Positions 108-56,720 of a stretch of 64,000 bases of DNA are shown piece by piece. Source of the DNA: Ruditapes philippinarum (Eukaryota); contig NW_026851649.1 of the NCBI RefSeq assembly GCF_026571515.1, positions 1 through 64,000 on the forward strand, read 5' to 3'. The translations under genes were made by a program, and so were the position numbers. Numbering within the stretch: the first letter of the stretch is position 1; every line of letters begins with the position of its first letter. The notes beneath the pieces were generated by a model. It did no database searches and had not been told where the DNA came from. It was given only the letters and a program-made list of their open reading frames with translations.

Positions 108-795
108 TGTTATATTTGCCATGTTTTAAGCCTATTTGTTGCCAACGCAACCAATATTTTTTCAAAATAGGGAGAACAGATAAGACATGCATAATCTCAA
201 GACTGCCATCTACCCATATGTCAAGTTTCATAAAAATATTTCCAGTACTTTTTGAGTTATCACTGGATTCAGTGTATGTGTAAAATTTGCCATATTTTCA
301 GTCTATGTGTTGCCATAGCAACCAGAATTTTCAACATAGGAAGAAAAGAAAAAGACGTGCATAATCTCCAGACTGCCATCTACCCATATTACAAGTTTCA
401 TAAAAATATTTCTATTACTTTTTGCGTTAACACAGGATCCAGTTTATATGTAAAATTTGCCATATTTTCAGTTTATTTGTTGCCATAGCAACCAGAATTT
501 TCAACATAGGAAGAAAAGAAAAAGACGTGCATAATCTCCAGACTGCCATCTACCCATATTTCAAGTTTCATAAAAATATTTCCAGTACTTTTTGCGTTAT
601 CACTGGATCCAGTTTACGTGTAAAATTTGCCATATTTTAAGCCTATTTGTTGCCATAGCAACCAGAAAGCAACCAGAATTTCTACATAGGATGAAAAAAA
701 AAGACGTGCATAATCTCCATACTGCCATCTATCCATATATCAAGTTTCATAAAAATATTTTCAGTACTTTTCAAGTTATTGCGGGATCCAGTTTT
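108..795. repeat. Tandem satellite array, ~170-bp monomer x4 (first monomer degenerate)
   Basis: Direct repetition with period 170 read in the sequence. Each monomer contains the palindromic core TGTTGCCATAGCAACCAGAAT. Confidence 0.85.
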
Positions 796-796
796 G

Positions 797-872
797 TGGA
801 CGGACGGACTGACGGACTGACAGACAGACGGACGGACGGACAGACGGACAGACAGACAGACGGACGGAGGGT
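797..872. repeat. (GGAC[G/A]GAC)n tetranucleotide-derived microsatellite
   Basis: GGACGGACGGACTGACGGACTGACAGACAGACGGACGGACGGACAGACGGACAGACAGACAGACGGACGGA read directly. Confidence 0.9.
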
Positions 873-1446: not shown

Positions 1447-3135
1447 TGTGAGCGACCAATTATAAACAAGAGGGCCATGATGGCCCTAGATCGCTCACCT
1501 GAATTATCAAACTCATCCAAACAATTACCTAGACAAGCATTCTGACCAAGTCTCATGACAGGTGAGTCAAAAATGTGACCACTACAGTGTTAACAAGGAT
1601 TATCCATATTTGAGCAGTGCGACCTAGTTTTTTACCCAGGTGACACATATTCAAACTTGACCTAGAAATCATCAAAACAAACTTTCAGACCAATTTCCAG
1701 GATACTTGGATCAAAATAGTAGCAACTAGAGTGTTAACAAGATTTTTCTATTTTTAGCTCCGGTGACCTAGTTTCACATGCGATTTCGAACTCATCCAAG
1801 CAATTACCTAGACAAACATCCTGACCAAGTTTGATGATAATTGAGTCGAAAATGTGACCACTAGAATGTTAACAAGGTTTTTCCATATTTGGGCGGTGTG
1901 ACCTAGTTTTTCATCCAAGATGACCCATGTTCGATCTTGACTTAGAAATCATCAAAACAAACTTTCAGACCAATTAACAGAATATTTGGATCACAACAGT
2001 AGCCACTAGAGTGTTAACAAGATTTTTTCTATTTTTAGCTCCTGTGACCTAGTTTTTCATCCGAAATGTCCCATGTTCGATTTATTCCCAGCAATGACCT
2101 AGACAAGTTTCCTGACCAAGTTTGATGACAATTGAGTCAAAATTGTGACCACTAGAGTGTTAACAAGGTTTTTCTATTTTTAGCTCCTGTGACCTAGTTT
2201 TTCATCCGAGATGACCCATGTTTCGAACTCATCCGAGCTATCACCTAGACAAGCATCTTGATCAAGTTTGATGATGATTGATGCAAAAATGTGACCGCTA
2301 AAGTGTTAACAAGGTTTTTCTATTTTTTAGCTCTGGTGACCTACTTTTTCATCCGAGATGACCCATGTTCGAACTCATCCAAGCTATCAACTAGATAAGC
2401 ATCCTGACCAAGTTTGATGATGATTGATGCAAAAATGTGACCACTAGAGTGTTCACAAGGTTTTTTCTATTTATAGCTCCGGTGACCTAGTTTTTCATCC
2501 GAGATGACCCATATTCGAACTCATCCGAGCTATTATCTAAACAAGCATCCTGACAAAGTTTGATGATGATTGGGTCAAAAATGTGACCACTAGAGTGTTC
2601 ACAAGGTTTTTCTATTTTTAGCTCCTGTGACCTAGTTTTTCATCAGAGATGACCCATGTTCGAACTCATCCAAGCAATTGACTAGACAAGCATTCTGACC
2701 AAGTTTGATGATGATTGGTTCAAAAATGTGACCACTAGAGTGTTCACAAGGTTTTTCTATTTATAGCTCCTGTGACCTACTTTTTCATCCGAGATGACCC
2801 ATGTTCGAACTCATCCAAGCTATCACCTAGACAAACATCCTGACCAAGTTTGATGATGATTGGGTCAAAAATGTGACCTCTAGAGTGTTCACAAGGTTTT
2901 TCTATTTTTAGCTCTTGTGACCTAGTTTTTCATCCGAGATGACCCATGTTCGAACTCATCCGAGCTTTCAACTAGATAAGCATCCTGACCAAGTTTGATG
3001 ATGATTGAGGCAAAAATGCGACCGCTAGAGTGTTCACAAGTAATTGTGGACGGCCGGACGGACGACGGACGACGGACGACGGACATTCACCGATCCTAAA
3101 AGCTCACCCTGAGCAAGCTCAGGTGAGCTAAAAAA
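1447..3135. mobile_element. Family-B satellite-carrying non-autonomous element, copy 1 (Helentron/HINE-like candidate)
   Basis: The 5' end CAAGAGGGCCATGATGGCCCTAGATCGCTCACCTG matches the 5' end of the second copy at 26161. It is followed by an internal tandem array and a (GGACGGAC/GACGGAC)n microsatellite at 3047-3085. The 3' end is the hairpin AGCTCACCCTGAGCAAGCTCAGGTGAGCT plus an A-run, matching 27424-27438. Confidence 0.6.
1700..3045. repeat. Tandem array, ~146-bp monomer (about 9 copies), preceded by a ~300-bp higher-order variant
   Basis: Marker GTGACCACTAGAGTGTT recurs at about 1848, 2149, 2291, 2437, 2583, 2729, 2873 and 3019. That gives spacing 301, 142, 146, 146, 146, 144 and 146. 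Confidence 0.85.
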
Positions 3136-3578
3136 CAATATGTTAATTTCTATATTTAAGTTTGAAAGATTACAATGTATACCAAAATATAAACAAAGTT
3201 ACTATGATTTATCATAATTATGTTATTACAGCATTCTTACATATAGTTCCCAAAGCAACTTTCAAATATTATTCTTACAAAGTAGGTTATTAAATGGCAT
3301 ATGTTTGAATGATTTGATACACAATAACTTATAAATTTGAGTTTTTTTTTGTTTGTTTGTTTGTTTGTTTTTTTTTCTTCCAGGATTAATTTTCAAACGT
3401 CATTATCAGACCCCTCAGGCAATATGTATATTTAAGTTTTGAAGGGGCCTTATACACATTGCTACATATCTGATCTATTCAGCTACAGGTCTTTTATGTT
3501 GGGTGTATATTTCCATTTTTTCTTATTGTATAGATTTGAAGGGAATGCTTCAATTGTTGAAGATATTACTCAAACAAA

Positions 3579-4481
3579 ATGGTACGAGACAGACTGAAAG
3601 AGTTACAGGAAAAACATGAACAATTTTGCAAGAATGACAACCACCAGACAGAAGGAGGTAAAATTGTCGCACGTTATTCAAACTCTGAAATACAACTTGA
3701 CTTATGTCTCCATAAAGTGACACAAATAAGTAAAAAGATAATCGCAATAACAAATGACGTAGAACATTTAGAGCACCTGCAAAAAGACATCATAGCAAAT
3801 CCATTATTAGATCACAACGAAGTTGTGCGGCTCGAAAGATCGTCTGATGTAATATTCAATACATCGGCTGCGATACAGAAAGAAATAAGTGAATATCGAG
3901 CAGAGGTGGTTCAGATGCAGATGCAAAAGTCTCACGAAATTGTGATTAAGAATCATCTAAACAAATTAGAAAGTGATTTAACAAAAGCGAGAAATGATTT
4001 CAGAGCGGCACAAGTAGATTATATAGAAAAGACCCAAAAATTACATCAGAGGGAGTACGACATAATGACAGGACATGATGATGATCACCATGACGACCAT
4101 GACAAAACCCACTCCCCATTACCTGCAGAGTTCCTAGGTGATTATTTTGTCCAGGCCGAGGATGCAAAAGCAGAACTACGTGAAATCAAGGCTAGAGATA
4201 AGCAGATAAAGAAAGTTGAAGAAAGCGTGATTCAAGTGAATCAACTATTTAAAGAAGTTAATAGTTTATTAAAAGAGCAAGGGGAAAAAATTGATACCAT
4301 AGAGAAACATGTGGAGAACAGTGTGGACTATGTGCAGGAAGCAAATGTTGGATTAAAGCAAGCAAAGAAATACCAGAAAATTACGAGGAAACATAAAATA
4401 TATTGTGTGGGTGTTTTAGTGGCTATATTAGCCGTTACTGTACTTCTTGTTGTCATAGTGATTACTTCTCAAACAGATTAA
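3579..4481 (+). CDS. Syntaxin-1-like Qa-SNARE (t-SNARE), complete and intronless, 300 aa, C-terminal TM anchor
   Basis: The N-terminus MVRDRLKELQ resembles syntaxin-1 MKDRTQELR. The SNARE motif IKARDKQIKKVEESVIQVNQLFKEVNSLLKEQGEKIDTIEKHVENSVDYVQEANVGLKQAKKYQKITRKHKI aligns with syntaxin-1A [72 protein letters not shown]. A hydrophobic tail IYCVGVLVAILAVTVLLVVIVI precedes the stop. The whole protein sits in one ORF. A (GTTT)n run and a TTCTTCCAG acceptor-like site lie upstream (3330-3385), so a 5'UTR intron is possible. Confidence 0.85.
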   Translation: MVRDRLKELQEKHEQFCKNDNHQTEGGKIVARYSNSEIQLDLCLHKVTQISKKIIAITNDVEHLEHLQKDIIANPLLDHNEVVRLERSSDVIFNTSAAIQKEISEYRAEVVQMQMQKSHEIVIKNHLNKLESDLTKARNDFRAAQVDYIEKTQKLHQREYDIMTGHDDDHHDDHDKTHSPLPAEFLGDYFVQAEDAKAELREIKARDKQIKKVEESVIQVNQLFKEVNSLLKEQGEKIDTIEKHVENSVDYVQEANVGLKQAKKYQKITRKHKIYCVGVLVAILAVTVLLVVIVITSQTD

Positions 4482-4639: not shown

Positions 4640-5635
4640 AAAAGTGATCACAGGAAACAGTTTTTATGAACAGACAGACAGACGGACTGAAGGACACTCT
4701 AAGTTAATATTTGAAACATCCCTGTTACCAAAATATAACATTATTAAAAGCAAAATTCTTAAAGAGGAGATAACTCTTGAATTAAAGATGCAATTTCATA
4801 AAAAATTTCAGCTCTTTTTGACTTATCACAAATATTGTTATATTTGCCATGATTTAAGCCTATTTGTTGCCAAGGCAACCAATATTTTTTCAATATAGGA
4901 AGAACAGATAAGACATGCATAATCTCAAGACTGCCATCTACCCATAAGTCAAGTTTCATAAAAATATTTCCAGTACTTTTTGAGTTATCACTGGATTCAG
5001 TTTATGTGTAAAATTTGCCATATTTTCAGTCTATGTGTTGCCATAGCAACCAGAATTTTCAACATAGGAAGAAAAGAAAAAGACGTGCATAATCTCCAGA
5101 CTGCCATCTACCCATGTAAAAAAGTTTCATAAAAATATTTCTATTACTTTTTGCGTTAACTCTGGATCCAGTTTATGTGTAAAATTTGCCATATTTTCAG
5201 TCTATTTGTTGCCATAACAACCAGAATTTTCAACATAGGAAGAAAAGAAAAAGACGTGCATAATCTCCATACTGCCATCTATCTATATATCAAGTTTCAT
5301 AAAAATATTTTCAGTACTTTTCAAGTTATCGCGGGATCCAGTTTTGTGGACGGACGGACTGACGGACAGACAGACAGACAGACGGACATCCGGCCGAAAT
5401 GGAATAAGGGGCCATTTCATTTGTTATTTTCTATTGTTTAATAAAGGGCCAATGGCCCCTTACTCTATTGTTAGGGAATGAACTCTATTGTTAGGGAATG
5501 AACTCTATTGTTCTCTTTTGTTCTGTTTACAGTTAGATTGCCCCCTTTCCTTATTCGGTAATGCGGACAGACAGACGGACGGAGGGTAAACCTTAAGTCC
5601 CCTCCGGTAAACCGGTAGGGGACTAATAAAGTACA
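4640..5635. mobile_element. Family-A satellite-carrying element, copy 2 (direct repeat of 1-915)
   Basis: 4730-5010 aligns base-for-base with 3-290. Three ~170-bp monomers run 4838-5340. A microsatellite at 5340-5390 is interrupted by a 170-bp insert carrying 3x GAATGAACTCTATTGTTAGGG (5466-5530) and resumes at 5565-5585. The terminal hairpin AGTCCCCTCCGGTAAACCGGTAGGGGACT lies at 5596-5624. Confidence 0.6.
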
Positions 5636-8572: not shown

Positions 8573-9461
8573 AGGATAGCTCCCCTTTTCATAGAAAAGT
8601 CGAGCTAATAAAAGGACAAATATGTTGTAGCCTATGCATTTTTCTACTCGCAATGTTGGAAAATTGATATTTCGCTCGACCTTCGGTCTCGTAAGATATC
8701 AATTTTTCCACCACGTTTATACAATTAACAAGTTTCGGCTACAAACTGTCTAATAGTTAAAGGTGGTTAAATATCATAAGAGGCCGAATGACGTAAACGA
8801 CACAGGACTGGGTTCAATCCCATACGCGTGTCAAAATGCTGATCGCATCGTTAAACTTACGATATCATATTCACACCTCTGGAAGGATGTTTTGATTGCA
8901 CTTAACAAGTATTTATACAATAGATACGTGTACATTTCCGAATTTCTGAACTAATCTTTCTAAATGGCAAAAAAAAGTAGAAATTATTAATTTTTTTTTT
9001 CGAGTAATCGAATATCAATTTTGTTAACCGATATTCGGACATTCGATCGAGTACTCGGTTAATCGGTTACTCGTTGCCATCCCTACTAATCAAATAATTT
9101 CTGTGCAAAATTTCAGATCATTCCCTCACTCAGCTTTCCAGAATATATATTCTATTTGTGAAGATTGACCCAAGTTTGAGAACTGTTTCAATGCTTTTCA
9201 CTCAATTTTGGCTATGAATAGCACTAAAATATGATTCCTTGTTTATTTCTGAGTATATTTCTTAATTATCTTTTGCATTTAAGTGCCCAAGCTGATCTAT
9301 GTAAGAAATTCAAACTTTATGTTTTGACATATTTGGGATTCAGTGGAGTTACTTTAAATGTAAAAACGTCAAACAATAATAATCAGAATAATAATCTTAA
9401 TATTTGACAGAGTTCAAAACACATGGTAGTTTAAAGAAATTGTGTTTTCACACAATATTAC

Positions 9462-9563
9462 CTGATGCCTGTCCTCTATTGCCACAAAGCTGGTGTATGG
9501 AGTCACTATACTGTGTTTCTTACTCAAGTCAATGATGTACTGTTTCCTCTCATTTTTGATCAC
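9462..9563 (-). CDS. PARP4-like exon (C-terminal region)
   Basis: Acceptor is CACTTACTAG|GTG and donor is CATCAG|GTAATA. The exon is 102 bp. Translation VIKNERKQYIIDLSKKHSIVTPYTSFVAIEDRHQ. The VTPYTSFVAIED motif resembles the VTPLTSMV segment conserved after the VWA domain in the ITIH/VWA5A family. Confidence 0.6.
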
Positions 9564-10115
9564 CTAGTAAGTGAAAAGAATGATAGATAAAATCTTATGT
9601 CAAATTGTGATGAAATTTTCATCGAAACAAATTACAAATTATAAGATGCTGTATAAATCTAAATGGCCATGATGGACCTATCAATGCTAACCTTTAGAGA
9701 AAACTACCTTGCTTATGTTCAATAGAATGTAAACATAATCTGAGCATAAATCAACAAGATACCGTATTTGCATTTAACAACCCCCCCCCCCCCTACTAGC
9801 GCCACAAACCACATATTATAGAAGAAAAAGATCTTAAAATCTTACCTTATAGATTTATAAACCATGATGAATGAGCAATTAACAAAAAACAATTAAGGAC
9901 ACTCCATTAATGTTAAATCATTATAAAAGATAATCCTGTATTATATATATAATCATAATATTCAATGATTTTTTTAATTGAATTGTAACTTAAATTAACA
10001 TATTTTGAAGCATATTTTTATAACCACGACAAAATACGTGCATGACCATGCCATACCATTGTAACTGAGTCGCAAAAGCAGCACAGCAATGTGATATACA
10101 TGTAAATAGATTTAC

Positions 10116-10196
10116 CTGATGTTTGATCCTGTCATCGTCCAGGGTTCCATTCTCATAGTCTGTAATCACTGCCCTAGCTGTTAACTGATGTAACAT
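10116..10196 (-). CDS. PARP4-like exon (C-terminal region; acceptor ambiguous between 10196 and 10184)
   Basis: Donor is CATCAG|GTAAAT. Translation ...LTARAVITDYENGTLDDDRIKHQ. Confidence 0.45.
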
Positions 10197-10482
10197 CTGT
10201 AACATGTTTTATATATTAATATAAAATGAATAGCTTTAAACATTTCAATCAAAAACCACATTCATAAAAAACATAAATGTAGTTTTCTAACAGTGAGTCA
10301 CCAGATTATTGTAGTTCATACACAGACAATGCATAAAAATATATAAGGATGTAACAGCAGACTTTTATTTTATACACATGCAATGCATAGAATTATCCAA
10401 AGATGTAACATAAAAAGGAATATATAATAAAGTTAAGAATAAATTAAATATATTTAAGGTCAATTAGCATGAAGAAAATGCA

Positions 10483-14989: not shown

Positions 14990-15240
14990 TTTTTTCTGGT
15001 TTTTACTACGATTTTAACACATATTTTGGTCATCACTTCTTTGTGGTCAGACTGTTCAACAGGCTTTTCTGGAAAAATTCCCAGTAATTACCAATTTTTT
15101 CACAACTTACTGACTACTAATCCTGAATGATAATGCTTTCCAAATGATTATTAGACTCAATGTCTGGGTTCAATTGTCACGGACAAATTACGCCTTGACC
15201 AAGGATCAAACTAGCCACCCCTAGATTTTTAATTTAATGC
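14990..15240 (+). mobile_element. SINE family S2, truncated copy
   Basis: The body aligns with 15700-15930 and 21360-21590. Confidence 0.45.
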
Positions 15241-15534: not shown

Positions 15535-15930
15535 GGGTGGCATGGCTGAGTAGTAAACACTCCAGACTAGTAATATAATGATTGTCAGCTGTGTGGGTTC
15601 AAACTCCATCAGGGGCAAGCCATCGTTTCCAATTAAACTAAAACAAATTTTGTATTATTTTGCATAATCATCTGTGAAAGCAAATTCTTTTTACTTTGTT
15701 TTTTTTCTGCTTTTTAACCCAATTTTGGTAATATTTTGGTGGAAAATCCATTTTCTGAATTTCCTGGATTTCTAAAGAGTAACTACCAATTTTTCTGCAA
15801 GTGACCGACCACTAATTACACATGATTTCTGAATCAGATGTGAGGGATAAATGATGATGAGACTTTATGTCTGAGATCAATTGTAATGGAAAAATTTCAC
15901 CTAGCCCTAGGATTGAATCAGTAACCCTTG
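15535..15930 (+). mobile_element. tRNA-derived SINE, family S2
   Basis: The head GGCATGGCTGAGTAGTAAACACTCC...GTGGGTTCAAACTCCATCAGGGG has A/B boxes. Its body shares TTTTCTGCAAGTGACCGACCA(C/A)TAAT...CATGATTTCTGAATCAG(A/C)TGTGAG(G/A)GA(T/C)AAATGA with 21380-21560 and 14990-15240. Confidence 0.55.
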
Positions 15931-16064
15931 GATTACTTTTATCCGTCACATGGTTAGCAGCAAAACAAAACTACATAAAAACGCTGTTTAATCGGGGAAA
16001 AGTAAGAATTAAACCATTTAAATAATCTAAAAACATGATCAAAGCAGGATAAATCAAATACGTA

Positions 16065-21329: not shown

Positions 21330-21595
21330 ACAAACAGTTTATTATTGGTATTTTTGTTTGTTTTTCTGTTCATAAGGCCAATTTTACATATGTGTGGTCA
21401 TTTTTCAACAAACACCCACCGAACAGGACTTTTCTGGATAACTAACAAGTAGTCAAAAATTTCTCTGCAAGTGACTGACCAATAATCATCCATGATTTCT
21501 GAATCAGCTGTGAGAGACAAATGACTGTTAGACTCAATTGTCACATTGACTTAGGATCCAACAAGCATCCCCATGAATACTAATCAGATGCTCTC
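21330..21595 (+). mobile_element. SINE family S2, copy
   Basis: The body aligns with 15700-15930. Confidence 0.5.
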
Positions 21596-24831: not shown

Positions 24832-26160
24832 CTGACAATACATGTACATTGTATCAGTACAATAAATACAGGATATGGAATGAGTGTAGGTTTAATACTT
24901 AATTTATTGAACAAGTTGAATAAAATCATATTAAGCGAGCCTCAATAAATTTAGTATTGAATCTACACAAATATAATATTCTGTTTATCACATACATAAA
25001 ATAAGAACGGGAAACTGTTAAAAAGAGCCATATTTCATTAAAGGCCAATGGTGTAGCACTAAAATTAGCGCACTTAAATGCTATGTTTATATATAGCGCA
25101 AATGACGTCACGCCAAAGTGTTATTACAATAGTGTAATATCATTTTTATCAAATAACTTTATTACACTCATGTGCTGCGCTTTATGTGATAAAAGGTATT
25201 TTGAAATAAATCTCTTAACACCAATGAAAACATAAGACATGGAAACAATTTTTTTATTATATACAATTTTGGCCAAAATTTTAAGTTAAAAAGGTCAATA
25301 ACTCCAAAAATATTGCTTTTAGAATTATGCCCCTTGTGTTATAACTGAACATTGTCATGTTAAGATAGTATTCCTATTTACGTGTAAATATACTCCCAAA
25401 ATAGAACAATAAAACAAAAGAAAATGGGTTGGGCAACAAGTTCTAACAACTTTTCATTAATCCCTTCCCAGAAATCTTTGTCTTATAAAGGGTGTTGCTA
25501 TACAGAGGCTGTACTTTAGTATCTAATGCAAAAACAACAAATATTTCAAACTAAATAGACTGGTACCTTATTATTGTCAACTTGAGCATTCTGTGCATAT
25601 AACCTGTACCTGAACTGGCAGTCCAGTCTGGTGGCAACATGTACCTCCAATGCTTCCATTTTCTTTGTCTCCTGTGAATACAACATAAGGTAAATGACAG
25701 TCAAAAACAAAATTCATTTTCAGTTGAATACTTTTTTATAGGAATTGATTTTTTTTTAACTTTTAAATACATCAGTAAAAAAAGAAATGTCCATGGACAG
25801 TGCTCTACTTTACTGAGTGCTGGAAAGTTAAATACATTTGTAAAGGCAACATAGAAAAAAGGGTATAACATTGCAACAAGATAATTTTAGGATTATCTGC
25901 CCTTTTGAAACAGTGCCTTTTTATGGCAATAAACATGTACAATGTATACCAAGTTTAAAGTGAATAGCTTTTATAGTTTCTGAGAAAATAGACCTTAATA
26001 AAACAGTCAGACAATGCTGACGCCAATGCCAAAGAGAGGGTTATGACAAATAGCTTCACATTTTTCCCCCGGAAAAGTGGAAATGACAACAGATACCAGA
26101 GTCTTATAAAACCATCTTTGAAATATTCTAAAATAAGTCTATGCAGTAGGACTAACAAAA

Positions 26161-27438
26161 CAAGAGGGCCATGATGGCCCTGAGGTCGCTCACCTGTATA
26201 TAGGCCCCCCGGAGCCGGGCCAGTTTAAATCCAAGGCTTTTATTTGAACAAACTTGGAAGACACCCATTAGAAGATGTTTCATGATGTTAAGTTTTTACT
26301 ACACACATAAAATGAAAAACATTGCCCCCCCCCTCCCCCCCGTTTAAACCCCAGGGCTTTTATTTGAACAAACTTGGTAGACACCCATAAGAAGATGTTT
26401 CATGCTAAACATCTAAGCTCTAGCTCATTGGGTTTTTCAAAAGAAGATTTTTTAAGTTTTTACTATACACATATAGCAAAAAACAATGACACCCCTGGGG
26501 CGGGGCCAGTTTGCACCCCAGGGCTTTTATTTGAACAAACTTTGTACACACTTACTAGAAGATGTTTCATGCTTAATATCTAAACTCTAGCTCTTTGGGT
26601 TCTTTAAAAGAAGATTTTAAGTTTTTGCTACATTGTATACACAAATAAGGAAAATCAATGACCCCCAGGGGCGGGGCCAATTTTGACCCCAGGGCTTTTA
26701 TTTGAACAAACTTTGTAGACACTCACTAGAAGATGTTTCATGCTTAATATCTAAACTCTAGCTATTTTGGTTTTTTAAAAGAAGATTTTTTTAAGTTTTT
26801 GCTATACACATATAAGGAAATCAATCACCCCCGGGGGAGGGCCAATTTTGACACCAGGGCTTTTATTTGAACAAACTTGGTAGACACCCATTAGAACATG
26901 TTTCATGCTAAATATCTTAGCTCTAGCTCTTTGAGTTCTTTAAAAGAAGATTTTTTAAGTTTTTACTATATGCATATAGGGAAAATCATTACCCCCTAGG
27001 GCGGGGCCAATTTTGACCCAAGGGCTTTTATTTGAACAAACCTGGTAGACACTCATTAGAAGATGTTTCATGCTAAATATCTTAGCTCTAGCTCTTTGGG
27101 TTCTTTAAAAGAAAATTTTTTAAGATTTTGACCCCAGGGCTTTAATTTGAACAAACTTTGTACACACTTACTAGAAGATGTTTCATGCCAAGCTCTTTGA
27201 GTTTTTTAAAAGAAGATATTTAAAGTTTTTTTCTTTTGGTTGCCATGGCAACCAGAGTTCTGCATGGAATTAAATTCTTTGAACAATTTTTAAAGGTGAC
27301 CACCAAAGGAACATTCCTGTGAAGTTTGGATGAAACTGGCTAAGTGGTTTATAAGGAGATGTCATTTAAAGTAAAAGTTTACGGACGGACGACGGACGAA
27401 AAGCGATCACAAAAGCTTTGTGACAGGTGAGCTAAAAA
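26161..27438. mobile_element. Family-B satellite-carrying non-autonomous element, copy 2
   Basis: Same 5' end as copy 1 (CAAGAGGGCCATGATGGCCCTGAGGTCGCTCACCTG). It has an internal ~168-bp tandem array, a (GGACGGAC)n stub at 27380-27400 and the 3' end CAGGTGAGCTAAAAA. The 3' region also contains TGGTTGCCATGGCAACCAGAGTTCTGCATGG, related to the family-A monomer core. Confidence 0.6.
26225..27215. repeat. Tandem array, ~168-bp monomer (about 7 copies, two truncated to 120 bp)
   Basis: Marker GGGCTTTTATTTGAACAAAC recurs at 26233, 26353, 26521, 26691, 26859, 27018 and 27138. Confidence 0.85.
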
Positions 27439-32657: not shown

Positions 32658-34517
32658 TTAATATTGTTTTTCAGTTCTCCAAAAAAACACTGTTTCTAAA
32701 TTATATGAGAAAACAATATTGATTGATAAAAGAAAAGAATGTAATTTTGACCATAAATTTTGTACAATAGTACATTCCCAAAAAAGATGGTAAAGCGTTT
32801 CTAAATTGCTACCACAAAAATCACATAGATTTGAATTACAAAGGCTATACTTAAATAACATTGTATTAGTTGGAATAAGTCTATGAATAAATTTGTATTG
32901 AAAATTTCTCAATGACACGTCTGTAGTACTTTTAAATGGAACCATATATATTTTTTGCCAATCCAACTCAGTTTCTATTTCTTTTTCCCATTTCTCTTCA
33001 TTTGTATTTTTGAACCTTTCATCATTTTCAAGTTGAATATTATATAAAAGCTTATTTGTAGATTTTGATTTTTTAACTTTATTTAGGAGTGTATCTTGTA
33101 CTTTGTTATAATTTCTTGTAGATTTCAGACTATTAAGATATCCTTTTGGTATATTATTCACAAGCGTGTAATATTTTAAAAACTCAGCATTTTCCATACC
33201 ATAGATATTTTTAAGGTCTTCAAATTTGTAGAGTTCATTTTTCCTATAATCATATAGATGTTCTAAATATAGAATACCTTTTTGATGCCATGTTTTATAG
33301 TACACCAATTTATTATCAATTTTAATATTCGAATTATTCCATATTATTTGTTTAAGGTTATCTTTTTTATTATTGTGTTCTTGTTGAATATGAAACCATG
33401 ACGAAAGCACATTGTTTACAAATGAATTATGAGGAAAAAGCTTATTGATATCTGATTTCGAAAGATTACAGTCAAATATAAGGTCATTTCCATATTGTTT
33501 TATCTTTTGATTTATAAAAAGTTTCCATAATCCTTTATTGTCCTCATTTATATATCGTTTGACCCAATTTGCCTTTACTGCATTTAAAAAATTATTAATA
33601 TCGATCATTTTTAAACCACCATTTTTAACATTAAGTTTTAATGTTTTACGTTTGATTTTTTCTGGCTTGCCATCCCAAAGAAACAAAAACATTGCTTTAA
33701 TTATTTCTTTTATCTTATTACTTGATGGGTTTTCTAAAACTGAAAATGGATACAACAGTTTAGGTAAGGCAAATGTTTTTATTACCATCACTTTACCCAT
33801 AAGGGTCAGTTTTCTGTGTTGCCATTGTTTTAAGCAAATAAAAAAGTTTCTTAGTTTTGGTTCTAAATTTATATCTGTATTTATTTTGTAATTAGACGAG
33901 AAAAGAATACCTAGAGTTTTTGCTGAATCAGATGTCCAATTGAATTTTTTATATTTACAATGTTCTATATCACTTTTTGTGAGCGATCCCACTCGTAGAA
34001 CTGTGGATTTTTTTGTATTAAGTTTTAAACCAGAGATTTTGCTAAATTCCGTTATGACATATACAAGTTTTTCAAAAGACTTCACTGATCCATCATTAAC
34101 AAATGTTGCATCATCTGCAAAAAAGGATTGCTTTATTGTTTTGTTCGCGATTTCTATTCCTTTAATTTCACTATCTTTTTCTATGAAATTTGATAATATT
34201 TCTATACATAAAATAAATAATGAAGATGATAATGGACATCCCTGACGTACTCCCCTTTCTATATTAAAAGACTCTGAAAAATGTCCATTATTGATAACTA
34301 TACTTGATATATCAGTATAAAAGATTTTAACCCATTTTATAAGATCTTTGCCAAAATTAAATTTATTCAGTGTATCAAATATAAATTGATGGCTTAGACT
34401 GTCGAATGCTTTTTCATAATCAGCAAAGAATAATAAACCCGGTTTATTTTCTTTCTGCAGATGTTCAATAATTTCAAAAATCAGCCTTACATTTTCACCA
34501 ATATATCTATTTTTCAT
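32658..34517 (-). CDS. LINE ORF segment 3: reverse transcriptase and C-terminal domain (619 aa open)
   Basis: GENVRLIFEI...YEKAFDSLSHQF...FADDATFVNDGS... Confidence 0.85.
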   Translation of the reverse strand: MKNRYIGENVRLIFEIIEHLQKENKPGLLFFADYEKAFDSLSHQFIFDTLNKFNFGKDLIKWVKIFYTDISSIVINNGHFSESFNIERGVRQGCPLSSSLFILCIEILSNFIEKDSEIKGIEIANKTIKQSFFADDATFVNDGSVKSFEKLVYVITEFSKISGLKLNTKKSTVLRVGSLTKSDIEHCKYKKFNWTSDSAKTLGILFSSNYKINTDINLEPKLRNFFICLKQWQHRKLTLMGKVMVIKTFALPKLLYPFSVLENPSSNKIKEIIKAMFLFLWDGKPEKIKRKTLKLNVKNGGLKMIDINNFLNAVKANWVKRYINEDNKGLWKLFINQKIKQYGNDLIFDCNLSKSDINKLFPHNSFVNNVLSSWFHIQQEHNNKKDNLKQIIWNNSNIKIDNKLVYYKTWHQKGILYLEHLYDYRKNELYKFEDLKNIYGMENAEFLKYYTLVNNIPKGYLNSLKSTRNYNKVQDTLLNKVKKSKSTNKLLYNIQLENDERFKNTNEEKWEKEIETELDWQKIYMVPFKSTTDVSLRNFQYKFIHRLIPTNTMLFKYSLCNSNLCDFCGSNLETLYHLFWECTIVQNLWSKLHSFLLSINIVFSYNLETVFFWRTEKQY

Positions 34518-34530
34518 AAAACCAGTTTGA

Positions 34531-35883
34531 TTAAAACTTATTATAGACGGCAGAACTTTTTTTTATTCTATTTGAAATTGTTTTTGTTGCAAGTTTATAA
34601 TCAACATTGAGCAAGCTTATTGGTCTCCAATTTGAAATATCTGTAAGATCTTTATCCGGTTTAGGAATAAGGGATATTATTCCTTGTCTTTGAAGTGTTG
34701 TTAATTTTGAAGTATCAAAAGAGTAATTAATGGAAGCTAGATAATAGTCTTTTATGCTATTCCAAAATAATTTATAGAATTCAACTGTTAAACCATCAGA
34801 TCCTGGACTTTTATTATTTTTCATTTCTGATAAAGCTATTTTACATTCATATTCATTAATTTTCCCTTCACATGTGATCTTTTCTTCTTCATTTAATAAT
34901 TTTATATCTGTATCAAAAAAATTAATATTTGAGTTTTGAGAAGTTCTATATCTATACAAACATTCATAAAAGGATTTTTCTTCTTTTAATATTTCTTTTA
35001 TTTCTGTTATTTCTTTATTTTCTACTTTTAATTTATGTATAACTTTTTTCTCGGCTTGTCTTTTTTCTAAGTTTGCAAAATATTTACTATTTTTTTCGTT
35101 ATGTTCTACATGAATAGCTCTTGCTCTTAAAATTGAGCCATTTACACGATATTCATAAATTTCATCAAGTTTTTGTTTTTTTAATAAAATTTCATTTTTT
35201 AACTTATTTTCATCTTCACTTTCTTTATAGGAATCAATTGTTAGTATTTTTTCTTCTAATTGTTTTATTTCATCGATCAAATTTAACTCTTGTTCTTTTT
35301 CTTTCTTTTTCTTAAAACTTGCATAACGTATTGTTTCATTTCTTATTGCACCTTTTATTATTTCCCACAAAGTATTTGGATTTGATGTTTTATTTATTTC
35401 TGCTGTTGTTTGAATAATTTCTTTAATTTGACTTTGATAAACTTCATCTAATAATAAAGCACTGTTCATTTTAAAGTATCCAGGTCCTTTTTGCATTGCA
35501 TTATCATTAAATGTCAAAGTAACTAGAGAATGATCTGTTTTAAAGCCATGTGAAATATTACTTTTTGAAATGATGTTTCTAAGCGAATCGGATATAAGAA
35601 AGTAATCAAGTCTACAGTATATGACTGGTTTTCCATTAGAGTGCCATGTAAATTGCCTCTTTTCAGGGTGTTTAAAACGCCAAATGTCAATTAGATTACA
35701 TGTTTCAATTATGTTTTTTATCTTATCTCTACATTTTCTACTTGTATGAAGATTTCCATTCTTTTTATCCAAAGATGTATTAATTACTGTATTGAAATCG
35801 CCACCGATTAAAATGTTCTTGTCGTCATTTTCAAGAATAAACTTTTCAAGTATATCAAAAATATATATGTTATCATCATTTGG
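34531..35883 (-). pseudogene. LINE ORF segment 2: AP-endonuclease C-part, linker and RT N-terminus (same frame as segment 1; ends at homopolymer frameshift)
   Basis: ...GGDFNTVINTSLDKKNGN...YCRLDYFLISDSL...ISNWRPISLLNVDYKLATKTISNRIKK. Confidence 0.75.
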
Positions 35884-53949: not shown

Positions 53950-56720
53950 TTTCTTAAACGAGTATGATGTACTGTAGAGAAGCGTTCACCTTTAATGAAA
54001 AATGAAGGAACCGATGGGGATTTAAATATTTTTTTAATGTTTGCTTTAAAGGAACGGAGGGATTCTGATTCACGTATTTTAATTGGAAGTTTATTCCATT
54101 GTTGTAGTGCTGATGGTAAAACGGATTTCGAAAAAATGTCTGTTCTTCTGACAATTGATGCTTAGTCTTTACTGTTTGTTAAAGAATATGGGTTTTCATG
54201 TGCATATTTCACAGATGGGGGAAATAATTGCATTAAATAAAGTGGTACCTAATAAATTGTTTTTGCCTTTGTATATTAAAAATAATTTTTGAATATGTCT
54301 CCCATCTGAAAGCGAAACCCAACCTATTTCTGTTAATAATGTTTGTATAGTAACGGATTTTGTCAATTCTGTAACAACACTGGCAGCTTCATATTGATAT
54401 TTTTCTAATGTTTCTTTCTCGTATTGCGCACAGTTATCACAGACTAACGATGAGTATTCTAAATGTGGACGTAAATATGATACATATATATTATTAAGTG
54501 ATTCTCTTTTAATTTTGAATTTGAGCATTTTCATGGAACCGAGTATTTTAGAGGCTTTAGATACTATGTTAGATATATGTTGATGCCAAGACCAATCTTG
54601 ACTAAATGTGACCCCAAGATGTTTATGATGTTTGACAAAATTGAGTTGTACATTATCAAAAAATAATTGTGTATGATCATATTAAAAAAAAATTAAAAAA
54701 AGATTGCTTCGGTTTTTGCCGAATTGAAATTGACTAACCATTGCTTAGACCATCTTGTTATTGTCGCTAGATCCTTTTTTAACGTTTCTTCCATAAAGGT
54801 TATGTTTTTTGAGGACACAGAAAGAGAACTGTCGTCTGCGAAAAAAAGAGTCTAGTAATACTTAAGAGTGAGTCTGCTATGTCATTGACATATATTAAAA
54901 ATAATAATGGACCAAGTACTGAGCCTTGAGCAACGCCCCCTTCTAAAGAAGAAAATGTCAAAGATACGAAAACTTTTTGGGTTCTGTTATTTAAGTAGTC
55001 TTTTAACCATGTATTTAGTTTCCCTTGTATACCGTATTGCTTTACTTTGAAGATAAGACCAGAATGCCAAACTCTATCGAATGCTTTAGAAATGTCACAA
55101 AAAATAACACAAGTAGATTCTTTGCTGTCAAATGTTTTGCAAATTTGGTTATATATATCAATAAGTTGATACTCTGTAGAATGACCTGGCATAAACCCGG
55201 ATTGATTTTGATATATTAAAGAATTTGTATGGAGATAATTATAGAAATGTTTAAAAATTATGCGTTCCATTATTTCACCAACACAGCTTATTAATGAAAT
55301 TGGTCTATAATTTGATGGTTCGTCTTTATTAACCTTTTTAAAAAGAGGCATAACATGTACCAGTTTCCAACTGCTAGGATAATAACCTTCATTTTACGAA
55401 TAATTAAAAAGTATAGACAGTGGAATAAGTTTCTTTCAACATTTTATGGCTTATTTCGTCTAGTCCAGAAACTTTATTTATAACTAAATTTGTTAATACA
55501 TCTTTTATTTCTTGTTCACAAACATTAAAGTTTTCTAGTCTTGAATTTGCATTAAAACTAAAGTCTTGAAGTTGGGTATGTGAATCATCCAACTGTGAGA
55601 TTGAACTGAAGAAGGAGTTTAAAGTATTGGCTTTGTCTAAGTCTGATAAGGAGAATGTGTCATTATTATTTCTTAAAGGTGGTATAGAATCGTTTTCAGC
55701 TGAATTATTCTATCTAACATTTTAACTTTTTTCCAATATTGTCGAGGGTTTGAGCTATTGAGATCATGCAAAGAAAATTCTTAACTATTGTATAATAACT
55801 CTTTTGCGTTTTTCCGTTTTTCTTCATATTGTTTACTTTGTTTCGAATGTGTTTATATTAAGTCCAATCTGATGTTTTATTACTGTTTATTGCCTTGTGA
55901 AATAATCTGTCTCTCTGCCTTAAGCTTTTACGAATATTTCTGTTAAACCATGGCTTATCTTTTGGCCAAATTAATGCAAAATACGACGGGATGCACTGAT
56001 TAACTAAATCCATGAATTCTGATGTAAAAATATTGCAAGCTTCATTTATATTTTAATTATTAATAAAGGTCCAGTCAGTATCTCTTATTAAATTATTGAG
56101 TTTAACAAAATCTGCTTTTTTATAGTTCCAAATTTTCCTTTTAAATTTGAATCGAAATCAACCTTTAAATAAGCTAATGTTTCATAATGGTCACTTATTT
56201 CATTATCTGTTTCAAAAACTCCTGAATCAAAAACTTGAATATTGTTTGTTAATGCGATAGGCTCGAGAAGAGTTTGCGAATTATGGATTACCCTAGTCGG
56301 GCTATTAATAATATTTTTCATGCTATTTGTCAACAGTGTTTCTTTCAATTTATGATTTTGCATCTTGAGCTGATTTTCATTTACATCTCCTACTAATATT
56401 AAGTGTTGTTTGTGTTCCAGAGCCATTCCTAAGCATGAGTTTAATTTGTCCAAAAAGTCAAATCTATACTGAGGAGGTCTATATAATGACATAATTTAAT
56501 AAGTCTGATTTTTATCTTTTATTTCAACCCAAATAGAATCAGGAACTATATTTTCAAAGGAGACAACGCAATTGGGTCTAAGAAAAGATGAAACGTAAAC
56601 AAGAATCCCTCCCGAGCGACACGACTTATCTTTACGAAACATTAAATTAAAACCCGATAATTGTAATTCTTTATCTTCAATATTAGAATCTAATTTGGTC
56701 TCAGTAAAACATAACACATA
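53950..56720 (-). pseudogene. Degenerate CR1/L2-like LINE copy (APE + RT, multiple frameshifts)
   Basis: Minus-strand ORF fragments are APE at 56717-56088 (LCFTETKLDS..., LILVGDVNEN). RT lies at 55592-54800 (NYRPISLISCVGEIMERII...SKAFDRVWHSGLIFKVKQYGIQGKL...GVAQGSVLGPLLFLIYVND). The RT tail lies at 54534-54196 (RPHLEYSSLVC...LEKYQYEAASVV). Confidence 0.75.

What the first reader, a model, noticed from the sequence alone, without database searches (positions are those of the whole stretch)
3579..4481. Divergent syntaxin with a His/Asp-rich insert in the Habc-SNARE linker
Between the predicted Habc region and the SNARE motif the protein carries TGHDDDHHDDHDKTHSPLP. This 12-residue D/H cluster is absent from canonical syntaxin-1/2/3 linkers. 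It looks like a metal-binding (Zn/Ni/Cu) or pH-sensing patch placed in the hinge that controls the open/closed conformation. The SNARE layer region and TM anchor are intact, so the protein is probably functional.
Basis: seen in the sequence. Interest (0 to 1): 0.55.

Follow-up and report, generated by a model that had tools for sequence, protein, structure and literature searches.

The report
Clam syntaxin paralogue with acidic linker
This is an intact, selectively maintained, intronless extra copy of a membrane-fusion protein (syntaxin) found only in molluscs; its odd Asp/His-rich stretch replaces the normal hinge at the same length, is typical of venerid clams, and is only mildly unusual.

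Summary
The 300-aa ORF at 3579-4481 (+) and its Asp/His cluster (aa 166-178, nt 4074-4112) are real. It is not an insert. Between the conserved TG and P-A-x-F anchors there are 16 residues, exactly as in rat and canonical mollusc syntaxin-1. It is also not a syntaxin-1 orthologue. It is 25-29% identical to canonical syntaxin-1, whereas true mollusc orthologues are about 61-67% identical to a flatworm syntaxin-1 query. It belongs to a mollusc-only family with one coding exon in bivalves, against at least six exons over ~40 kb for canonical Mya syntaxin. The N-peptide, Habc bundle, all 16 SNARE layers with Q234, and the TM anchor are intact. pN is far below pS (dN/dS about 0.08-0.09), so it is functional. 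The acidic linker is shared by four relatives (Ruditapes, Mercenaria, two unnamed). Only two of its five His are conserved; the other three arose recently by single-base changes. AlphaFold predicts a disordered linker, but predicts the canonical linker helix in a matched control. Most likely it is a flexible acidic spacer that has lost the L165/E166 latch helix. A metal or pH sensor is possible but weakly supported. Low-to-moderate interest.

The parts
3579..4481 (+). Complete single-exon coding sequence of a 300-aa syntaxin-like Qa-SNARE, stop codon included
   Evidence: ORF. Best PDB sequence match is rat syntaxin-1A, E=2.7e-18 over aa 41-274. 96% identical to NCBI 'syntaxin-like [Ruditapes philippinarum]'.
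3579..3617 (+). N-peptide MVRDRLKELQEKH (aa 1-13); the D4-R5-L6-x-E8 motif matches the SM-protein-binding N-peptide of plasma-membrane syntaxins
   Evidence: V2, D4, R5, L6 and E8 are invariant in 22 family members. D4 and R5 are invariant, and L6 nearly so, in the alignment with canonical mollusc MTKDRLAAL and rat MKDRTQEL.
3681..4070 (+). Habc three-helix bundle (aa 35-164)
   Evidence: AlphaFold helices 35-73, 79-112 and 117-164, with 10-residue-block pLDDT mostly 85-96. Foldseek: syntaxin-1A Habc 1ez3 TM 0.84-0.87; squid 1s94_B TM 0.91, rmsd 1.5 Å. Pfam Syntaxin PF00804 scores only 20.7 bits, below the 26.7 cut-off.
4071..4142 (+). Habc-SNARE linker (aa 165-188), containing the Asp/His cluster H166-H178 (nt 4074-4112) and the conserved PLPAEF anchor
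   Evidence: pLDDT below 50 and no helix at 165-182, whereas a matched control on canonical Mya syntaxin predicts a linker helix 164-172. Within the clade the linker is 72-83% identical, but only 16-27% identical to paralogues.
4206..4364 (+). SNARE motif layers -7 to +8 (aa 210-262), with zero-layer Q234
   Evidence: Layer-by-layer comparison with rat syntaxin-1A: every layer is hydrophobic or small, and Q234 matches Q226. Pfam SNARE domain is above its cut-off.
4365..4463 (+). Polybasic juxtamembrane segment KKYQKITRKHK (aa 263-273) and hydrophobic tail anchor IYCVGVLVAILAVTVLLVVIVI (aa 274-295)
   Evidence: Read directly from the translation. It aligns with the juxtamembrane and TM region of canonical syntaxins.
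1510..3040 (.). Tandem array with a 145-bp period (about 10 units), 0.5 kb upstream of the gene; the Mercenaria orthologous locus has a matching array upstream
   Evidence: TRF. blastn of L001 5889-7135 against window 1524-3135, about 70% identity.
9459..10199 (-). Two conserved minus-strand exons (9459-9563 and 10107-10199) of the large opposite-strand host gene that encloses the Mercenaria orthologue
   Evidence: 84-86% amino-acid identity to L001 minus-strand fragments. The Mercenaria host gene encodes 3164 aa with BRCT/PARP/VIT/VWA domains and spans the whole locus.

Best explanation
The ORF encodes a functional, tail-anchored Qa-SNARE (t-SNARE) of the plasma-membrane syntaxin type. It belongs to a mollusc-specific, intron-poor paralogue family that coexists with the canonical multi-exon syntaxin-1 gene. 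In bivalves the family has a single coding exon, which suggests a retrocopy origin followed by DNA-level duplication (inferred). The Asp/His cluster is the venerid-clam version of the Habc-SNARE linker. It has the same length and about the same net negative charge as the canonical linker, but it has lost the hydrophobic positions (rat L165, M168, L169 become D173, K176, T177) that form the short linker helix latching syntaxin-1 closed. The linker is therefore most likely a disordered acidic tether, and the protein is less firmly closed (more readily 'open') than syntaxin-1. It still keeps the N-peptide for Sec1/Munc18 binding and the R/I pair that Munc13 contacts in syntaxin-1. The extra His residues are recent single-base derivatives of Asp and Pro codons in an Asp-rich tract, not an ancestral metal site. 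Shown: family placement, integrity, purifying selection, linker length, clade conservation, predicted disorder. Inferred: retrocopy origin, weakened closed state, role in exocytosis.
For: Domain integrity. No length difference from the canonical linker. Separate family: 25-29% identity to canonical syntaxin-1, against 61-67% identity of mollusc orthologues to a flatworm syntaxin-1 query. The NJ tree groups it with mollusc-only proteins from Pinctada, chiton, Haliotis and Patella. Mya and Haliotis cracherodii each have both types. Gene structure: one coding exon in the window, Mercenaria, Dreissena (two copies) and Pinctada (a tandem pair), and two in Haliotis, against at least six exons over ~40 kb for canonical Mya. 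Selection: pN 0.12-0.21 against pS 0.67-0.76 (at or near saturation) within the clade, dN/dS about 0.08-0.09 where it can be estimated. Synteny with Mercenaria. Clade-typical linker. Codon-level origin of the His residues (GAC to CAC, CCT to CAT, CCA to CAA to CAT). Loss of the linker helix in a like-for-like AlphaFold comparison. Roles of L165/E166 and R151/I155 in syntaxin-1: PMC8728020.
Against: There is no expression evidence: the two short contigs carrying relatives are genomic or of unknown type. The linker is as conserved as the folded domains within the clade (72-83%). That is more than a pure spacer needs, so it may bind a partner or ligand. AlphaFold used only 22 sequences (pTM 0.43), so open versus closed cannot be read from the model. 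Position-by-position equivalence with L165/E166 rests on an alignment at about 27% identity, although it is anchored on both sides. The tree is a rough NJ tree without support values. Retrocopy hallmarks (poly-A remnant, target-site duplications) were not sought and would be long decayed.
Confidence: 0.72

Rival explanations
1. The Asp/His patch is a specific metal-binding (Zn/Ni/Cu, or low-affinity Ca) or pH-sensing switch. Metal binding or His protonation would neutralise the acidic hinge and change the open/closed balance or a partner interaction.
For: The cluster is far denser than chance (1 in 200,000 shuffles). The linker is as conserved as the folded domains within the clade, and H166 and H178 are in all five sequences. 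Five His among six Asp would shift net charge from about -5 towards 0 on acidification (arithmetic on the sequence). The position coincides with the hinge that matters in syntaxin-1.
Against: Three of the five His are not conserved: they are D/P/Q in Mercenaria, P0004 and P0002. The His-rich state is therefore recent and confined to the Ruditapes lineage. The region is predicted disordered. Unrelated Qa-SNAREs independently show D/H-rich linkers, for example P0102 EHHDNHHDDDDDTDE, as expected of compositional drift in acidic low-complexity linkers. No literature on His-rich syntaxin linkers was found.
Confidence: 0.13
2. The linker composition is neutral low-complexity drift with no effect on the open/closed equilibrium; the protein works like any syntaxin-1-type t-SNARE.
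For: D, H, P and Q interconvert by single base changes in a GAY/CAY/CCN tract. Linker length and sequence vary widely across the family: -9 in Pinctada, -2 in the sister paralogues, +1 in Mercenaria.
Against: Within the clade the linker is 72-83% identical while synonymous sites are at or near saturation, so it is under constraint. The canonical linker helix is predicted in the control but not here.
Confidence: 0.1
3. It is a dead retrocopy (processed pseudogene) of a syntaxin gene whose open frame survives by chance.
For: The coding sequence is intronless. In Mercenaria it lies inside an unrelated opposite-strand gene. It is flanked by satellite arrays, and LINE reverse-transcriptase remnants lie in the window.
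Against: The full-length ORF is intact in at least five sequences whose synonymous sites are at or near saturation, with pN only 0.12-0.21. The position is syntenic in two genera. Every functional landmark is retained.
Confidence: 0.02
4. It is the clam's ordinary syntaxin-1 orthologue that has acquired an insertion (the literal reading of the finding's title).
For: The best PDB and Pfam matches are to syntaxin-1A, and NCBI names some relatives 'syntaxin-1A-like'.
Against: There is no length difference. Identity to canonical syntaxin-1 is 25-29%, while canonical mollusc syntaxins share a near-identical linker with rat. Canonical and divergent genes coexist in Mya and Haliotis, and their gene structures differ.
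Confidence: 0.02

Closest known systems
Syntaxin-1A / canonical invertebrate 'syntaxin' (Qa.IV plasma-membrane syntaxins; PDB 3C98, 1EZ3, squid 1S94)
   Same: It has the same architecture: N-peptide with the DR..E motif, Habc bundle (TM 0.84-0.91), a linker of identical length between the TG and PAxF anchors, a Q-SNARE motif with all layers, a polybasic juxtamembrane segment and a TM anchor. The equivalents of R151 and I155 (R158, I162) are kept.
   Different: Identity is only 25-29%. The equivalents of L165/E166/M168/L169 are D/H/K/T, and no linker helix is predicted. It has a single coding exon, against at least six over ~40 kb. It is a paralogue that coexists with the canonical gene.
Bivalve 'syntaxin-1A homolog / syntaxin-1A-like' paralogues (P0005-P0019: Mercenaria, Ruditapes, Mactra, Dreissena, Mya)
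   Same: Identity is 42-53%. They share the MVRDRLAE N-peptide, the intronless coding sequence (Dreissena) and the SNARE and TM organisation, and belong to the same mollusc-only clade.
   Different: Their linker is Gly/Ser/Ala-rich (TGNEAGGSATVDPSNIQAVF), two residues shorter, and lacks both the Asp/His tract and the PLP motif. Linker identity to the window protein is only 16-27%.
Retrogene-derived paralogues nested in host-gene introns
   Same: The coding sequence is intronless while the canonical relative is multi-exon. In Mercenaria the gene lies inside a large opposite-strand PARP/VIT/VWA gene. LINE reverse-transcriptase remnants lie nearby.
   Different: The event is old (family-wide in bivalves) and no poly-A or target-site duplication was examined. 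The gastropod relative has one intron, so stepwise intron loss is an alternative origin.
Acidic or His-rich low-complexity linkers in other Qa-SNAREs (e.g. P0102 fragment; jellyfish syntaxin-7-like P0154)
   Same: D/H- or D-rich stretches lie just N-terminal to the SNARE motif.
   Different: These are unrelated syntaxin subfamilies and independent origins. They show that this linker is prone to such composition.

Membership tests
Syntaxin / Qa-SNARE | SNARE motif with a glutamine at the zero layer and hydrophobic heptad layers -7 to +8 | tested here: met
   Pfam PF05739 scores 47.8 bits against a 26.8 cut-off. Q234 matches Q226, and all 16 layers are hydrophobic or small.
Syntaxin / Qa-SNARE | N-terminal three-helix Habc domain | tested here: met
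   AlphaFold predicts three helices with block pLDDT mostly 85-96. Foldseek gives TM 0.84-0.91 to the syntaxin-1A and squid Habc domains. Caveat: Pfam PF00804 scores 20.7 bits, below its 26.7 cut-off.
Syntaxin / Qa-SNARE | C-terminal tail anchor preceded by a basic juxtamembrane segment | tested here: met
   KKYQKITRKHK followed by a 22-residue hydrophobic stretch, aa 263-295. Judged from the sequence only; no TM predictor was run.
Plasma-membrane (Qa.IV) syntaxins | N-peptide (DRxxEL-type) for Sec1/Munc18 binding | tested here: met
   MVRDRLKEL. D4, R5, L6 and E8 are invariant in the family and align with canonical MTKDRLAAL and MKDRTQEL. Binding itself cannot be tested here.
Syntaxin-1 orthologue group | High identity to bilaterian syntaxin-1 and placement inside that clade | tested here: not met
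   Identity to rat and canonical mollusc syntaxin is 24-29%. Canonical mollusc proteins are 61-67% identical to flatworm syntaxin-1. The NJ tree places it in a separate mollusc-only clade.
Syntaxin-1 orthologue group | Multi-exon gene structure | tested here: not met
   The window has a single coding exon, as do Mercenaria, Dreissena and Pinctada. Canonical Mya has at least six exons over ~40 kb.
Syntaxin-1 closed-conformation switch | Amphipathic linker helix carrying L165/E166 (the LE latch) | tested here: not met
   The aligned residues are D173/H174, and M168/L169 become K176/T177. No helix is predicted and pLDDT is below 50, whereas the control predicts helix 164-172. This is a prediction, not a measurement.
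Syntaxin-1 closed-conformation switch | R151/I155 pair contacted by the Munc13 MUN domain | tested here: met
   R158 and I162 align with R151 and I155. I162 is nearly invariant in the family. Their role is taken from PMC8728020.
Dedicated His-based metal-binding site | The liganding His residues are conserved across orthologues | tested here: not met
   Only H166 and H178 are conserved. H170, H171 and H174 are D/P/Q in relatives.
Dedicated His-based metal-binding site | Measured metal affinity | not testable with these tools
   This needs ITC, NMR or IMAC retention of a recombinant linker.
Retrogene | Intronless copy of a multi-exon parent at an unrelated locus | tested here: met
   The Mercenaria orthologue is nested in an opposite-strand PARP/VIT/VWA gene.
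Retrogene | Poly-A remnant and target-site duplications | not tested
   Given saturated synonymous divergence these would be expected to have decayed. Only ATTAAA signals downstream were noted.

The most novel reading that the evidence does not exclude
Molluscs carry an undescribed, intron-poor family of syntaxin-1-like t-SNAREs that keep the Munc18 N-peptide and the Munc13 RI contact but have dispensed with the LE latch helix. They would be naturally 'open' syntaxins serving a specialised secretory route. In venerid clams the hinge has become an Asp/His patch that makes opening, or a partner interaction, sensitive to pH or to Zn2+/Ca2+.
Probability: 0.1. Interest if true: 0.6.

Novelty: new member of a known kind. 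Interest (0 to 1): 0.27.

Why it matters
If the linker really abolishes the closed state, these proteins would be natural counterparts of the engineered 'open syntaxin' (L165A/E166A) mutant. They could be used to ask how exocytosis is regulated without that latch. Otherwise the main value is for annotation. Proteins labelled 'syntaxin-1A-like/homolog' in bivalve genomes are not syntaxin-1 orthologues; they form a separate, intronless, mollusc-specific family. The full-text searches made here found no description of that family.

Tried and rejected
1. Expression evidence. The contig carrying P0002 (L005) is genomic: it aligns 63 nt upstream of the ATG and carries a SINE-like repeat. The nature of L006 is unknown. 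Exact-sequence look-ups of the window protein, P0001, P0005 and P0018 found nothing. As a result dN/dS against the 96%-identical Ruditapes protein could not be computed.
2. A second syntaxin copy in the window: none.
3. Literature. Searches on intronless or mollusc syntaxin, bivalve SNARE expansion, Ruditapes syntaxin, lineage-specific Qa-SNAREs and His-rich syntaxin linkers returned nothing relevant. PMC9993606 concerns Stx7 only.
4. Open versus closed state from the AlphaFold model. Rejected as uninformative: pTM is 0.43, and the model matches closed syntaxin-1 (3C98) only over the Habc domain.
5. dS for most pairs is saturated, so only pN against pS and two finite ratios are reported.
6. 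Naming the host gene from the window alone was not attempted beyond two conserved exons.

Full report
**Observation**

Window 3579..4481 (+) is one uninterrupted 300-codon ORF.
- Its ATG is the first after an in-frame stop at 3558, with A at -3 and G at +4.
- The quoted string TGHDDDHHDDHDKTHSPLP is aa 164-182, nt 4068-4124.
- From H166 to H178, 11 of 13 residues are Asp or His. Only 1 of 200,000 shuffles of the protein reached that density.

The cluster is therefore real and non-random. No other syntaxin-like sequence occurs in the 64-kb window.

**It is a complete syntaxin**

- Pfam SNARE (PF05739) scores 47.8 bits against a cut-off of 26.8. Pfam Syntaxin (PF00804) reaches only 20.7 bits against 26.7.
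- The best solved-structure relatives by sequence are all rat syntaxin-1A, E=2.7e-18 over aa 41-274.
- AlphaFold on a 22-sequence family alignment gives a confident three-helix Habc bundle: helices 35-73, 79-112 and 117-164, with block pLDDT mostly 85-96.
- That bundle superposes on syntaxin-1A Habc (1EZ3, TM 0.84-0.87) and squid Habc (1S94_B, TM 0.91, rmsd 1.5 Å).
- All sixteen SNARE layers are hydrophobic or small, and the zero layer is Q234.
- The N-terminus MVRDRLKEL keeps the D-R-L-x-E pattern. It is invariant across the family and shared with canonical mollusc MTKDRLAAL.
- A polybasic segment and a 22-residue hydrophobic anchor end the protein.

**It is not an insert**

HMMER aligns the stretch to rat syntaxin-1A with no gap: TGHDDDHHDDHDKTHSPLPAEF against TGRTTTSEELEDMLESGNPAIF. 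MAFFT alignment with canonical syntaxins of Mya, oyster, scallop, Haliotis and Octopus gives the same result. Sixteen residues separate the conserved TG and P-A-x-F anchors in both.

The canonical segment is itself acidic (five D/E), against six Asp here. What changed is composition:
- The positions aligned with rat L165, E166, M168 and L169 are D173, H174, K176 and T177.
- The positions aligned with R151 and I155 are retained as R158 and I162.
- In syntaxin-1, L165A/E166A opens the linker, and R151/I155 is the contact for the Munc13 MUN domain (PMC8728020).

**It is not the syntaxin-1 orthologue**

- The protein is 24-29% identical to rat and canonical mollusc syntaxin.
- Canonical mollusc syntaxins are 61-67% identical to a flatworm syntaxin-1 query, and their linker is nearly identical to the rat one.
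- An exhaustive HMMER scan of 1.84 billion representatives found only four proteins below 1e-30.
- Every named protein among the nearest outgroups is molluscan: Pinctada, the chiton Liolophura, Haliotis and Patella.
- A rough NJ tree without support values groups all of these apart from the syntaxin-1/2/3-like cluster.
- Mya arenaria and Haliotis cracherodii each have both a canonical and a divergent gene.

**Gene structure and context**

The coding sequence is a single exon in the window and in several relatives:
- Mercenaria: 915 nt.
- Dreissena: two segmentally duplicated copies on different chromosomes, with flanks mostly 93-98% identical.
- Pinctada: a tandem pair.

The Haliotis relative has two coding exons. 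Canonical Mya syntaxin spans about 40 kb with at least six coding exons. A retrocopy origin is the simplest reading, but it is an inference.

The window is collinear with the Mercenaria locus:
- a 145-bp tandem array upstream;
- the gene itself (73% nucleotide identity);
- two minus-strand exons downstream (84-86% amino-acid identity).

In Mercenaria these exons belong to a 3164-aa BRCT/PARP/VIT/VWA gene whose range encloses the syntaxin gene on the opposite strand.

**Functional constraint**

Within the clade (window, P0002, Mercenaria P0003, P0004) synonymous sites are at or near saturation (pS 0.67-0.76), while pN is 0.12-0.21. Where it can be estimated, dN/dS is 0.08-0.09. All ORFs are intact. 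A pseudogene is excluded.

**How typical the linker is**

All four closest relatives share GH(D/E)D..DD.DK(T/I)H(S/T)PLPAEFLG.
- The Asp content (6-7 acidic residues) and His166 and His178 are conserved.
- The internal His are not: the counts are 5, 5, 4, 3 and 2.
- The codon alignment shows how the internal His arose: GAC to CAC (D to H), CCT to CAT (P to H), and CCA to CAA to CAT (P to Q to H).
- The His-rich state is therefore recent and confined to the Ruditapes lineage.

Within the clade the linker is 72-83% identical, comparable to Habc (65-91%) and the SNARE motif (63-78%). Against the sister paralogues it is only 16-27% identical. It is therefore constrained within the clade and free between clades.

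Linker length varies across the family: -9 in Pinctada, -2 in the sister paralogues, +1 in Mercenaria. Unrelated Qa-SNAREs show independent D/H-rich linkers, for example P0102 EHHDNHHDDDDDTDE and a jellyfish syntaxin-7-like protein.

**Structure of the linker**

AlphaFold gives coil with pLDDT below 50 for aa 165-188. A control used the same procedure and alignment depth on canonical Mya syntaxin. It predicts a short helix at 164-172 (the NDELEEMLE segment) with a block pLDDT of 73. The canonical latch helix thus appears to be replaced by a disordered acidic tract. The global open or closed state cannot be read from the model (pTM 0.43).

**Mechanism**

Most likely (about 0.7) this is a working t-SNARE of a mollusc-specific paralogue family. 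Its hinge would be a flexible acidic tether lacking the LE latch, which predicts a weaker closed state. N-peptide/SM-protein binding and the RI contact are retained.

On its own I rate the 'more open' sub-claim at about 0.35-0.4, because it rests on alignment and prediction. A dedicated metal or pH switch (about 0.13) is not excluded. H166 and H178 and the unexpected conservation of a disordered segment argue for it. The non-conservation of three His and the convergent compositional drift elsewhere argue against it.

**Novelty and verdict**

The protein is already in NCBI as an automatic 'syntaxin-like' model, 96% identical. None of the full-text searches run here turned up a description of the family or its linker. 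It is a new member of a known kind.

The title claim, a divergent syntaxin with an insert, is only half right. The feature is lineage-typical, the same length as the canonical linker, and mostly compositional. Interest is low to moderate, at 0.27.

Noticed in passing
window 1510-3040; L001 5889-7135: A tandem array with a 145-bp period (about 10 units, 85% internal matches) lies 0.5 kb upstream of the syntaxin gene. A matching array (about 70% identity) lies upstream of the Mercenaria orthologue. Short pieces of its flanks recur at window 26157-26195 and 27264-27438, so it may be part of a satellite-bearing mobile element and not strictly orthologous DNA.
   Followed up: partly
window 114-798 and 4842-5348; microsatellites at 822-865, 4672-4687, 5364-5387, 5565-5580: Two direct arrays of the same 170-bp repeat bracket the syntaxin gene and its 145-bp array. 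Each array is adjacent to an (A/G)GAC tetranucleotide microsatellite. From memory, this resembles the tandem-repeat-containing MITE/Helitron-like elements described in bivalves; that was not tested.
   Followed up: partly
window 9459-9563 (-) and 10107-10199 (-): Two conserved exons encode VIKNERKQYIIDLSKKHSIVTPYTSFVAIEDR and LQMLHQLTARAVITDYENGTLDDDRIKHQ. They belong to a large opposite-strand gene that in Mercenaria encodes a 3164-aa BRCT/PARP/VIT/VWA (PARP4-like) protein and encloses the syntaxin gene. Nesting in the window itself could not be shown, because only 3.5 kb lies to the left of the gene.
   Followed up: partly
window 32658-35772 (-) and 54800-56492 (-): Non-LTR retrotransposon remnants: ORFs with reverse transcriptase (RVT_1), zf-RVT and endonuclease (Exo_endo_phos_2) domains. 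The first lies in a very AT-rich stretch (25% GC).
   Followed up: partly
L003 and L004 (Dreissena polymorpha, two chromosomes): Identical 301-aa intronless syntaxin-like genes sit on two different chromosomes, with flanks mostly 93-98% identical over several kb. This is either a recent inter-chromosomal segmental duplication or an assembly artefact.
   Followed up: partly
L007 3001-3891 and 5539-6402 (Pinctada imbricata): Two divergent intronless syntaxin-like genes (P0027 and P0026) lie in tandem 1.6 kb apart, so the family also expands by local duplication.
   Followed up: no
P0102 (ENA fragment, 140 aa), P0113, P0154: Unrelated Qa-SNAREs (syntaxin-7-like by similarity) carry Asp/His- or Asp-rich stretches immediately N-terminal to the SNARE motif, for example EHHDNHHDDDDDTDE. 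This is an independent recurrence of the same compositional theme.
   Followed up: partly
L005 9-118; window 15159-15227, 15813-15936, 21483-21545: A tRNA-like, SINE-type repeat upstream of the P0002 gene has several copies in the window.
   Followed up: no
window 3340-3382 and 3510-3534: Two polypyrimidine-plus-AG motifs (ttttttttcttccag, ttttcttattgtatag) lie just upstream of the ATG and look like splice acceptors. This suggests the single coding exon may be preceded by a 5' UTR intron. There is no transcript evidence.
   Followed up: no
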